A stretch of DNA of 62,829 nt, the filler included, from Basidiobolus ranarum (taxonomy: Eukaryota), in the NCBI GenBank assembly GCA_040143965.1. It is 19 parts of 19 records of this genome, joined end to end, with 100 filler letters (N's around TTAATTAATTAA, not from the genome) between each part and the next. Parts side by side here need not be neighbours in the genome. Positions count along the whole stretch, not along the records: positions 39,800 to 43,008 come from JASJQH010009525.1; 18 more parts are not named here. One strand, written 5' to 3'. Shown piece after piece: positions 39,700-43,008 of the stretch. The notes under the pieces are model-generated. The model was not told the DNA's origin. It was given only the letters and a program-made list of their open reading frames with translations, and ran no database searches. Each line of letters begins with the position of its first letter. Within the stretch, counting starts at the first letter, position 1. Both the position numbers and the translations under genes were made by a program.

Positions 39700-39799
39700 N
39701 NNNNNNNNNNNNNNNNNNNNNNNNNNNNNNNNNNNNNNNNNNNTTAATTAATTAANNNNNNNNNNNNNNNNNNNNNNNNNNNNNNNNNNNNNNNNNNNN

Positions 39800-41491
39800 C
39801 CTGTCTAGTTTGTTGCAAACGTTCCTTCTCGTGATTTACGAAGGTACGGAAGGTTCCTACAATCTCTGCTTCAATTGGCTTACCAGGTTTGCCTTCACTC
39901 GATAATTTCTTTGAGGGTTTGGCCCCCAATAAACTAGCAATAGGTTCAGAAATTTTGGAACTTTGGCTGTTGATTGCCTTCACATTTCTACCCGATTCTT
40001 TCGCAACGGTCTCCGATTGTTTAGCCTTGTTTTTGTGTTCATCAATGCTCGAACTAGCTTGCTCAGATTGTTGAGCAGTTACAGTAGAGTTTGAAGTTTT
40101 GCTTTCGTCAGCTTTAACTTTGGTACGCATCGCAGGAGGCTTGTATTTTCCTTGACTATCGTTGCTTAGGCTATTAGCACGAACTACAGAACTATACTTA
40201 TCTTCTTCATCTAATTGGCTATCATCAATGAATTGTCCGCGCTCCTCCGCAATGTGAGGATTTACCGATGACATCTTCAAAAGACAGGTTAGAATGGAAA
40301 GCAAGCAAACATATTGGCATTGTACATACTCTAGCAATTTCATTGGCAATTCTAATTGCTTTCTTTTCCCTTTCTTTGTAATCAGAGCTACTGCGATCTA
40401 GTTTAGTAGTATAGATCTCTTCGTCGAAATCTGTTTGAAGGCCAAAGAGGTGTTCATTTGCGGCAAATTGATCCCACTGATTTTCAGCTCCTCCATCTAG
40501 CTCTGTGAAGAATTGAATTAAGGGTTTTGAATATTTTCAAGAACAAAGAACGATATTTTCCCAAGAAAAAAAGGAGGTTGTAGTGCATAATGAAAGGATA
40601 TTCTAAAGTTTGAAACTCCACGTGATCATCAGGATTCCACTTGTGCAATTCACGTTCTCTAACTGAGCCAGTATGTCCACTAATATGAGTATCAATCTTG
40701 AAAGCTATACGTTTACAATATAAGAGTCAATCATTCTGTTTTTCATAAGCTGAATTAAATTGGGAAATGGTCTCATACTATCTTTTTCGGGTCCCTTCTC
40801 TGATATAGAAAGATCTACTCCGACCGCATTAACCTCCAAACAATCTTTAGCTAAGACAATGAGGGTGGGAACAATTTGACCGGAATTTTCATTTTTCTCC
40901 TCGGTAGCGGACTTAATAACTCGTGCATATTTCAGCACCACTCCTAATTCCCCTTCAGTGGAAGCAGCATGGAATAAACCTTCATATTTGGTTCCACCTT
41001 TGACAACAACTTGAACATTTAGACCCTGTTTTCACAGAAATAATTTTGTTAACGATAGGCAAGAAAGCAGGATTGATATAAAAGTAAATATACATAAGTA
41101 TATATTTAATACAATACCACTAAATGTATAAGAAGGTAAAGCATGCGATCGTGCATGTGTTTTGCGAAAGTGTCATTCTTGACAATAGGAGAATGAGTGG
41201 CGTGTGGAATAGAAGGGCTATGAGACTGGGGAATGCTCTGCTGAGAGGCATTGGAGGACCAGGCTTTTGAACCTCCTCCACGAGGTAGAGTATTGGAATT
41301 TTGACTCCATTTACCCTTACCGCCTCTAAATAAATGATATGTTAGCTCAGTAAAGGTGAGCGGTCATAGTAGGCAACTGAATAAACATGCGGGTCTTTTA
41401 GTACTTAATTTTTACTATACCTTTGGGAAGCAGGTTGAAAAGGGAAATCCTGTCTTCGGGGTTTTTGTTGTCTATCACTCACGGAGGACAT
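39800..41491 (-). CDS. PBP1: Ataxin-2/Pbp1 homologue, 5' part (SM-ATX and LsmAD domains), 6 exons including an AT-AC intron
   Basis: HDRMLYLLIHLVG..YEGLFH; FKIDTHIS..RERELHKW; WDQFAANEHLFGLQTDFDEEIYTTKLDRS; NPHIAEERG; DEEDKYSSVVR. Confidence 0.92.
40505..40601 (-). other. U12-type AT-AC intron (97 nt)
   Basis: 5' ATATCCTTT, branch CCTTAAT, 3' CAC. Its removal restores the frame into LsmAD. Confidence 0.9.
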
Positions 41492-42753
41492 GATTTATTT
41501 GTTGAAAAGGATTTGTTTGTAACGAAGAAGCTTAGTTGGCCACGGTGTGATTGTAGTAGTCAGAGAAACCTTAATATTGTGTGATGATCGATAGAAATCA
41601 AGTAAGCTAGAGACGATTTGATACGTAATTAATGGCGTGTAGATAAAAGAGGAAAACTATAAATTTAGTACAGCAGAAACTTTAATATGAAGGACTGTGA
41701 AAGTGATGTCGAGTGGTGTTGTCCGTGCTCTTCTGGGTTAACGAGTATGTTACTGTCCTCAAATTTAACTTAAAAGGTATACGTTTGTGTTCGAATGATA
41801 CCCTTAGAAAAATTGGATAGGCAAGGTTTGCCCAATTCTATATCTGTTTTATGATATTTCAATGCAATGTCCACGTCGCTCAATCTCGAGTTGTTCTCGA
41901 TCAATTGATCGGCTCTTCTTGATTCCCATCAAAATTCTCCTTGGATTCGCTATGGCTAAGGGTAACTTTCCTCTATAATCATCAATTTGCTGCTTATCTC
42001 ATGATCTTTACATAGATAATAGAAATCAGTGGAGTTTATTGAATTATCCTCTGGGTTGAATTCGATCAAGGCTAATGTTATTCTATCGATAAGAAAATAT
42101 ATATAGATTCGAACTAATTGATGGTTAATTTGATAGTATGAATGCTCATAGATATAAATAAACAACCGTGGTTTAAGTTGTCAGTTTGAGTGACGTAATA
42201 GCCTACCACGCCTCGTCTGTAGGAAAGGTTCTGAGTTATGTTGCTCAAATATGCAATCATTTCTCAAGTAAATGGACACTTGAAATTCTACTAGCAACAG
42301 ATAATGGTCCATAACTGATTGCAAATAAAGATGTGTAGCTACGTGAAACAACAGATTTACCAACTAACCTTGAATTTATCCGTGAAACGCAGCACCATGC
42401 GAATCGCTACCTAAGAATTCACGTATTGAAAGGATGGTTTGGGTTGGTGATAGATGGCTTTAAAGTTCTCTGATATTCGTCAATTGATCTTGAGGTATAC
42501 CTACTCCGTCAAGGTCATACATTTCAGTCCATTGACCAGTTATTGTTGCATACACACATTTTTCAGAGTTTATGGTGTCTATAGCATCAGTATAGGATTC
42601 TATACGTGGTTGTGAATGAACAGGAGACGAGGAAATGCAGGATAAGGTAAATGCAGTGTTTATTCGAAGCGTGGAAAAATAGGCGAGACAAACCCTAGAT
42701 ATGGATTCTGTGATGTTATATATAATGCCTTCCAGTATAACTAATCCCATATA

Positions 42754-43008
42754 TTACTCTTTCGGCTCTGATTCTTTCGTCTTTTTTTGTTTGCTGCGCA
42801 AATAACTATACCGAAGGACGGCTTGCATGTTACTTTTAGTTGCTAGTTCTTGCGATACTCGCGTCCAATCGTGACCATATTTATCAACCAATTCAAGTAG
42901 CAGCTTGCTTTCTTCAGGAGTCCAACGTCCCCTTGTAATAATGGGATTTACATGTGTATCATACCTTGCCTGAACCTGAAATGGTGTTCTATGAGGGCCA
43001 TTCAGGGC
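42754..43008 (-). CDS. Myb/SANT repeat protein, C-terminal part
   Basis: RTPFQVQARYDTHVNPIITRGRWTPEESKLLLELVDKYGHDWTRVSQELATKSNMQAVLRY..*. Confidence 0.85.
   Translation of the reverse strand, partial: ALNGPHRTPFQVQARYDTHVNPIITRGRWTPEESKLLLELVDKYGHDWTRVSQELATKSNMQAVLRYSYLRSKQKKTKESEPKE

What the first reader, a model, noticed from the sequence alone, without database searches (positions are those of the whole stretch)
40505..40601. Minor-spliceosome AT-AC intron in fungal ataxin-2/Pbp1
Seen on the minus strand: ...ACT TTA GA|ATATCCTTTC...AAACCCTTAATTCAATTCTTCAC|A GAG CTA GAT GGA... The 5' end matches the U12 consensus ATATCCTTT, the branch CCTTAAT lies about 12 nt from an AC end, and removing the 97 nt restores LEELDGGAENQWDQFAANE. 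I found no plausible GT donor nearby, and retention shifts the frame. Established: U12 splicing is absent from Dikarya model fungi but retained in some early-diverging fungi. Inference: this organism has a working minor spliceosome, and standard annotation would mis-model this gene.
Basis: partly seen in the sequence, partly recalled or inferred. Interest (0 to 1): 0.72.

Follow-up and report, generated by a model that had tools for sequence, protein, structure and literature searches.

The report
Ancient minor intron, fungal ataxin-2
A 97-base intron of the rare minor-spliceosome (AT-AC) type really does interrupt the ataxin-2/Pbp1 gene of a Basidiobolus fungus and is shared with a distant mycorrhizal-type fungus, but this genus is already known to be rich in such introns; the odder by-product is a catalytic U6atac RNA that does not match these introns fully.

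Summary
Confirmed: a 97-nt, phase-2 U12-type AT-AC intron at 40505-40601 (-) in a Pbp1/ataxin-2 gene. The genome's paralog keeps it at the same site with only the signals conserved, and so does 1 of 80 metagenome loci, a glomeromycete-like one. All four minor snRNAs and two minor-spliceosome protein families are in the genome. The deposited model already splices it, so 'annotation would mis-model this gene' fails here. The tool labels that model Basidiobolus, a genus published as the fungus richest in minor introns (PMC10639083, PMC11347168); this scan has noted other such introns in this genome. No RNA reads could be examined. By-product: the only U6atac found has GUCGA where AAGGA normally pairs with the donor, leaving +6/+7 unpaired, while the introns stay canonical. 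It resembles the unexplained 'CC variant' of PMC2396436, whose five fungal rows are all of the other type. Real, old, largely expected.

The parts
40505..40601 (-). Intron 4 of the Pbp1/ataxin-2 gene: 97-nt U12-type AT-AC intron, phase 2
40593..40601 (-). U12-type 5' splice site (ATATCCTTT); pairs with the 5' end of the genome's U11
40514..40523 (-). Branch-point sequence (CCTTAAT plus TCA-side flank); pairs with the genome's U12, one A bulged; 13 nt from the last branch A to the end
40503..40506 (-). 3' splice site AC (40506-40505) followed at once by an exonic AG (40504-40503), an out-of-frame competitor
41421..41491 (-). Exon 1 (coding part)
   Evidence: model identical to P0002
41326..41420 (-). 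Intron 1, GT-AG, 95 nt, phase 2
41118..41325 (-). Exon 2
41026..41117 (-). Intron 2, GT-AG, 92 nt, phase 0
40779..41025 (-). Exon 3, SM-ATX (Lsm) domain PF14438
40705..40778 (-). Intron 3, GT-AG, 74 nt, phase 1
40602..40704 (-). Exon 4, holds the conserved ELxxW motif; ends two bases into a Glu codon
40330..40504 (-). Exon 5, first half of LsmAD domain PF06741
40275..40329 (-). Intron 5, GT-AG, 55 nt, phase 0
39800..40274 (-). Exon 6, second half of LsmAD; cut by the end of the contig (G000:C9525), so the gene is partial here

Best explanation
The stretch is a genuine U12-type AT-AC intron removed by the fungus's own minor spliceosome. Shown: the signals, the frame, the conservation and the genes for the machinery. 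Inferred from the established pathway (PMC3584512): U11 pairs with donor positions +4 to +9, U12 pairs with the branch site and bulges an A, U4atac/U6atac.U5 joins, U6atac replaces U11, and the AC 13 nt past the branch is chosen over the AG two bases further on. Without this step the protein stops before LsmAD, so full-length Pbp1 depends on the minor spliceosome. The intron is old: it sits at the same codon and phase in Basidiobolus and in a glomeromycete-like locus, and is missing from the other fungal loci sampled, most simply by loss. In this organism the U6atac-donor helix can form only at +4, +5 and +8 to +10, with +6 and +7 unpaired (inferred from sequence), so catalytic-stage recognition of the donor probably leans on protein contacts.
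For: Exact U12 donor, branch and AC; model identical to deposited P0002. Paralog L008 has an 87-nt AT-AC intron at the same site with donor ATATCCTTT and branch CCTTAAC, while the intron interiors align no better than shuffles (110 of 300 as good). L055 has an 85-nt AT-AC intron at the same site and phase; its four best protein hits are Glomeromycota. U11 84.6 bits and U6atac 66.3 bits pass Rfam's cut-offs; U12 49.4 and U4atac 46.6 are full-length but under the cut-off of 53, the same pattern as published for B. meristosporus. Branch x U12 duplex -8.0 kcal/mol, donor x U11 -4.9, U4atac 5' end x U6atac 13 contiguous pairs at -24.1. RTCCCA lies 63-68 nt upstream of 4 of 4 minor snRNA genes. CCDC84/CENATAC and Ubiquitin_4 (the U11/U12-25K family, link recalled) pass Pfam cut-offs. 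Canonical donor-branch pattern 193 matches against 44 for the reversed control. Optimal branch-to-end distance 11-13 nt and AT-AG disfavoured (PMC3584512 section 4).
Against: No transcript was seen; what evidence the deposited models rest on is not visible. U12 and U4atac score below Rfam's cut-offs. The own U6atac pairs poorly with this donor (best duplex -5.3 kcal/mol and out of register, against -11.4 for the Rfam consensus box). The whole U4atac/U6atac duplex beats shuffles only modestly (11 of 300 as good). The window's branch has T where the consensus has C. Only 1 of 80 metagenome loci holds the intron, so its age rests on one outside locus whose lineage is assigned by best hits only. 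Twenty in-frame GT/GC-AG alternatives exist on paper.
Confidence: 0.94

Rival explanations
1. The major spliceosome removes a longer GT-AG intron (donor at 40653, acceptor ending 40503) and the U12 signals are idle relics.
For: The pair is in frame, the donor looks usable, and an equivalent pair exists in the paralog.
Against: It deletes 18 residues including R193, L195 and W198, which are at least 90% conserved in 16 homologs. That donor is explained by the Arg-Glu codons it overlaps. The alternatives that spare the motif (40621, 40551) have no counterpart in the paralog. The U12 signals are kept while the intron interior is scrambled.
Confidence: 0.02
2. It is an AT-AC intron handled by the major (U2) spliceosome.
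For: U2-dependent AT-AC introns exist (abstract start of PMC1557818 in the listing); the own U6atac fits this donor poorly.
Against: Donor +4 to +9 and the branch match this genome's U11 and U12 and differ from the gene's four GT-AG introns; the defining features of the class are exactly these two signals.
Confidence: 0.02
3. Add-on, not exclusive: the intron is a regulatory bottleneck; retention or use of the AG two bases downstream yields truncated, decay-prone messages and tunes Pbp1 levels.
For: Both outcomes stop before LsmAD; both paralogs have AC followed by AG.
Against: The AG is forced by the Glu codons and is absent in L055. PMC10639083 reports no cell-cycle-regulated minor splicing in Rhizophagus (passage). 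Most fungal loci sampled lack the intron (78 of 80).
Confidence: 0.12
4. For the U6atac oddity only: a second, canonical AAGGA-type U6atac exists but is missing from this fragmented assembly, and the copy found is secondary.
For: The assembly has 13,754 contigs; the Rfam search scored only 45 of about 2,894 candidates.
Against: Two exact-pattern searches over the assembly found no other copy: 2 matches, 1 of them the known gene, and 3 matches against 1 control, none with a U6atac hit. B. meristosporus is listed with one U6atac. PMC2396436 found either type but not both in each species. The copy pairs over 13 bp with the genome's U4atac and has the shared upstream box.
Confidence: 0.12

Closest known systems
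Minor (U12-type) introns of Basidiobolus meristosporus (249 in PMC10639083; 237 in PMC11347168)
   Same: Same genus by the tool's label; same signals; same snRNA scoring pattern, with U11 and U6atac above and U12 and U4atac below Rfam's cut-off; the ortholog P0004 has a linker of the same 21 residues.
   Different: Different species. Whether this very intron is in those catalogues could not be checked: the per-intron lists are on FigShare and MIDB, not in the files held.
U12-type introns, AT-AC subtype (PMC3584512)
   Same: Donor, branch, AC end, short branch-to-end distance, non-zero phase.
   Different: Host gene is not among human or mouse minor-intron genes; no paper found placing a minor intron in ataxin-2.
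U6atac 'CC variant' (Davila Lopez et al. 2008, PMC2396436)
   Same: C instead of G opposite donor +6, with canonical introns. The downstream CCUCGA seen in 8 of the 9 CC rows and 0 of the 14 AG rows displayed is also present here.
   Different: U rather than C opposite +7 (GUCGA against [GU]CCGA). Found in a fungus, whereas the five fungal rows of that alignment (three Mucorales, two chytrids) are AG type.

Membership tests
U12-type intron | 5' splice site RTATCCTT, complementary to U11 | tested here: met
   ATATCCTTT; duplex with own U11 -4.9 kcal/mol
U12-type intron | Branch sequence complementary to U12 with a bulged A | tested here: met
   Duplex -8.0 kcal/mol with one bulge; paralog has the perfect CCTTAAC
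U12-type intron | Short branch-to-3' end distance (optimum 11-13 nt) and matched termini | tested here: met
   13 nt here, 11 in L055, 17 in the paralog; AT with AC
U12-type intron | Removal restores a conserved reading frame | tested here: met
   Identical to P0002; linker length 21 against 21-27 in 14 of 17 sequences compared
U12-type intron | Genes for U11, U12, U4atac and U6atac in the genome | tested here: met
   4 of 4 found full-length; 2 of 4 above Rfam's cut-off
U12-type intron | Full pairing of donor +4 to +9 with the U6atac AAGGA box | tested here: not met
   C-C at +6 and U-U at +7. This concerns the snRNA, not the intron, and has precedent in CC-variant species
U12-type intron | Spliced in vivo at these ends, dependent on U12/U6atac | not testable with these tools
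   No reads available for this window; deposited models are indirect support only
Ataxin-2/Pbp1 family | SM-ATX (Lsm) plus LsmAD domains | tested here: met
   PF14438 E 1.7e-17; PF06741 E 8e-15 and 1.4e-7 on two exons
Ataxin-2/Pbp1 family | C-terminal PAM2 motif | not tested
   The gene is cut by the contig end at 39800
U6atac CC variant | [GU]CCGA in place of AAGGA | tested here: not met
   Reads GUCGA, 4 of 5 positions; works like the CC variant but is not literally it
U6atac CC variant | Sole U6atac of the genome, able to pair with U4atac and U12 | tested here: inconclusive
   No other copy in three searches, but the assembly is fragmented; pairing with U4atac strong, with U12 drawn but only -1.7 kcal/mol

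The most novel reading that the evidence does not exclude
Basidiobolus splices well over a hundred canonical minor introns, this one included, with a single U6atac whose donor-binding box (GUCGA) cannot pair at +6 and +7. That would be a fungal member of the unexplained CC-like class, would favour that class as ancestral with AAGGA arising repeatedly, and would imply that most of the U6atac-donor helix is dispensable or replaced by protein. A culturable, minor-intron-rich fungus would make the 2008 puzzle testable. The ataxin-2 intron itself would date from before the Zoopagomycota-Mucoromycota split.
Probability: 0.6. Interest if true: 0.5.

Novelty: new member of a known kind. Interest (0 to 1): 0.3.

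Why it matters
The intron itself adds one more host gene, an RNA-granule regulator, to a class already catalogued in this genus, and gives a dated marker of minor-intron loss across fungi. It may explain three oddly short glomeromycete Pbp1 models. The U6atac variant matters more: pairing of U6atac with the donor is held to be required for minor splicing (title of Incorvaia and Padgett 1998 in a reference list), yet PMC2396436 called the CC variant difficult to explain, and a fungus with a related variant and many canonical introns is a handy system to resolve it.

Tried and rejected
Co-evolved donors: a pattern complementary to the variant U6atac (RTATCGAY plus branch) gave 35 matches against 98 for its reversed control, so no such intron class. 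Second U6atac: L006, L132, L133 and L134 are chance matches. Mammalian orthologous minor intron: ATXN2/ATXN2L 0 hits in 8 supplementary files of PMC6717393 (control ATXN10 present), 0 in PMC11347168's held file, 0 in 4 files of PMC6865273 (no control term used). Ataxin-2 gene-structure papers gave no intron class or position. Plant and non-mammalian animal genes were not examined. An intramolecular helix between the U6atac box and the stem-loop region appears in the minimum-energy fold but is weak (z -1.74, 11 of 200 shuffles as good); kept as an idea only. The donor table (19 unique donors from the 30 loci fetched out of 193 matches) is fixed at +1 to +8 by the search pattern and is no evidence. 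The upstream box was tested on one independent gene, U2: core TCCCA present at -58 but with T in the first position, a partial pass. RNA reads were not available, so the junction is untested.

Full report
Observation. The 97 bases at 40505-40601 on the minus strand begin ATATCCTTT, hold CCTTAAT 12 bases before the end and finish in AC; removing them joins two exons in frame. The window is a string of contigs of about 3.2 kb joined by N spacers; the gene lies on the piece 39800-43008, which is G000:C9525, and is cut at 39800. Exon 3 matches SM-ATX and exons 5-6 match LsmAD, so the host is ataxin-2/Pbp1. A donor-branch-AC pattern occurs once in the window against 0.02 expected, with 2 of 100 shuffles giving a match; the pattern was shaped on this intron, so that figure is generous.

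Annotation. A search with exon 5 returned 82 proteins; the top one, P0002, is 100% identical, lies on a 3,209-base contig and is labelled Basidiobolus ranarum by the tool. My six-exon model with the AT-AC junction equals P0002 at all 426 residues. The paralog's model P0003 and the B. meristosporus protein P0004 carry the same 21-residue linker. I cannot see what evidence those models rest on.

Alternatives. Enumerating every in-frame donor-acceptor pair between exon 4 and the WDQF motif gave 21 in the window, 20 of them GT/GC-AG, and 8 in the paralog, 6 of them GT/GC-AG. The three GT/GC donors shared by both paralogs all delete the ELxxW motif, whose R193, L195 and W198 are at least 90% conserved in 16 homologs. 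The donors that spare the motif are not shared. Retention stops translation after residue 248 and the AG two bases past the AC after residue 215, both losing LsmAD.

Conservation. The paralog (L008, G000:C7043) shares all five intron positions; its fourth intron is 87 nt, AT-AC, with the same nine-base donor and a perfect CCTTAAC branch. The interiors of all five intron pairs align no better than shuffles (for this one 110 of 300 as good), so the kept signals point to selection. A metagenome scan confirmed 300 of 383 candidate stretches and kept the best 80. In 78 of 80 the linker reads through in one frame, 1 (L074) is cut by its contig end, and 1 (L055, 33% GC) has an 85-nt AT-AC intron at the same codon and phase, with a U12 donor and branch. 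The four best protein hits of L055 are Glomeromycota; a Mucorales-like locus, L065, lacks the intron. The 80 loci include duplicates and look mostly basidiomycete by eye, so this is a biased sample. The simplest reading, an inference from one outside locus, is an intron older than the Zoopagomycota-Mucoromycota split and lost repeatedly. Human and mouse ATXN2 and ATXN2L are not in the minor-intron gene tables of PMC6717393, where ATXN10 is; plants and other animals were not examined.

Machinery. Each minor snRNA is found once and full-length: U11 84.6 bits (cut-off 39), U6atac 66.3 (33), U12 49.4 (53), U4atac 46.6 (53). PMC11347168 lists the same above/below pattern for B. meristosporus. The branch pairs with U12 at -8.0 kcal/mol with a bulged A and the donor with U11 at -4.9; the U4atac 5' end makes 13 contiguous pairs with U6atac at -24.1. 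Read against the Rfam consensus lines, one of those pairs swaps G-C for A-U and two change on both sides to make new pairs. The whole U4atac/U6atac duplex beats shuffles only modestly, 11 of 300 as good. RTCCCA lies 63-68 nt upstream of 4 of 4 genes; the motif was picked after seeing shared words, resembles the plant snRNA upstream element (recalled, no call), and passed only partly on U2. CCDC84/CENATAC and Ubiquitin_4 domains pass Pfam's cut-offs; that Ubiquitin_4 marks U11/U12-25K is recalled. Genome-wide, the canonical donor-branch pattern has 193 matches, redundant at their 3' ends, against 44 for the reversed control.

The U6atac oddity. The box that should pair with the donor reads GUCGA, not AAGGA. 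In register this leaves C-C at +6 and U-U at +7; the best duplex with this donor is -5.3 kcal/mol and out of register, against -11.4 for the consensus box. U11 is canonical, and donors complementary to the variant are not enriched, 35 against 98. No second U6atac turned up in one Rfam and two pattern searches, though the assembly has 13,754 contigs. PMC2396436 describes a [GU]CCGA 'CC variant' in Trichoplax, cnidarians, a sponge, amoebozoans, moss and oomycetes and calls it difficult to explain. In its alignment the five fungal rows are AG type, and 8 of 9 CC rows but 0 of the 14 AG rows displayed share the downstream CCUCGA that this RNA also has (two further matching places and non-matching rows were not displayed). 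I found no fungal example in searches; subscription papers and Rfam's own sequence lists were not searched.

Mechanism. Shown: signals, frame, conservation, genes of the machinery, predicted pairings. Inferred from the established pathway (PMC3584512): U11/U12 recognition, exchange to U6atac, choice of the AC by distance from the branch (13 nt; optimum 11-13) with AT-AG disfavoured. Inferred and weaker: that a short U6atac-donor helix is held by protein; PMC11874965 says SCNM1 contacts both the donor and U6atac in the human complex. Splicing in the cell was not observed.

What is known. PMC10639083 gives B. meristosporus 249 minor introns, the highest fungal density, and none in Dikarya; PMC11347168 gives 237. 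The scan's own notes show 8 similar AT-AC introns elsewhere in this genome among 87 notes fitting the words; none on ataxin-2 or the U6atac box. No paper placing a minor intron in ataxin-2 appeared in searches.

What I read. PMC10639083: passages and section 34. PMC2396436: passages, sections 12 and 16, supplement hits (file 6 not searched, file 1 cut). PMC11347168: passages and supplement hits. PMC3584512: passages and section 4. PMC11874965, PMC5435706, PMC12730607, PMC4105795: passages. PMC6717393, PMC6865273: supplement searches only. PMC1557818: listing only. The per-intron catalogues on FigShare and MIDB were not available and may already list the orthologous intron.

Verdict. Real, well supported, old, and expected for this genus: a new member of a known kind, interest 0.3. 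Most of that score comes from the shared glomeromycete position and the mismatched U6atac.

Noticed in passing
L001:1501-1634 (G000:C89:21836-21969): The only U6atac found has GUCGA in place of AAGGA and shares a downstream feature with CC-variant U6atac RNAs; the genome's minor introns remain canonical.
   Followed up: yes
L001, L002, L003, L004, 63-68 nt upstream of each snRNA; L135 at -58: A shared RTCCCA box upstream of all four minor snRNA genes, and a near match upstream of U2, probably the snRNA promoter element of this fungus.
   Followed up: partly
P0008, P0010, P0011: These three glomeromycete models have a 16-residue linker and lack the Leu-Glu (or Ile-Glu) seen in 14 of 17 sequences compared, exactly where the AT-AC intron sits: possibly mis-modelled, or shifted to major splice sites. 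No DNA available.
   Followed up: partly
L055:1082-1166: AT-AC intron at the same site in a glomeromycete-like metagenome contig; it ends in three tandem AC dinucleotides 7, 9 and 11 nt past the branch, of which only the last is in frame.
   Followed up: yes
window 40503-40506 and the paralog L008: In both paralogs the AC acceptor is followed at once by an exonic AG; its use would shift the frame.
   Followed up: partly
L001:1414-1423: A 10-base word covering the U6atac donor-binding box is repeated 97 bases upstream of it; unexplained, may be chance.
   Followed up: no
L049 (G000:C7013): [quoted passage not shown]
   Followed up: partly
window 21713 (-), 56845 (+), 60563 (-): Three copies of a dispersed repeat that contains ATATCCTT; none matched the donor-branch-AC pattern.
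   Followed up: no
window, 19 spacers such as 39700-39799: The window is about 20 separate 3.2-kb contigs joined by artificial N spacers, so neighbouring pieces are not genomic neighbours.
   Followed up: yes
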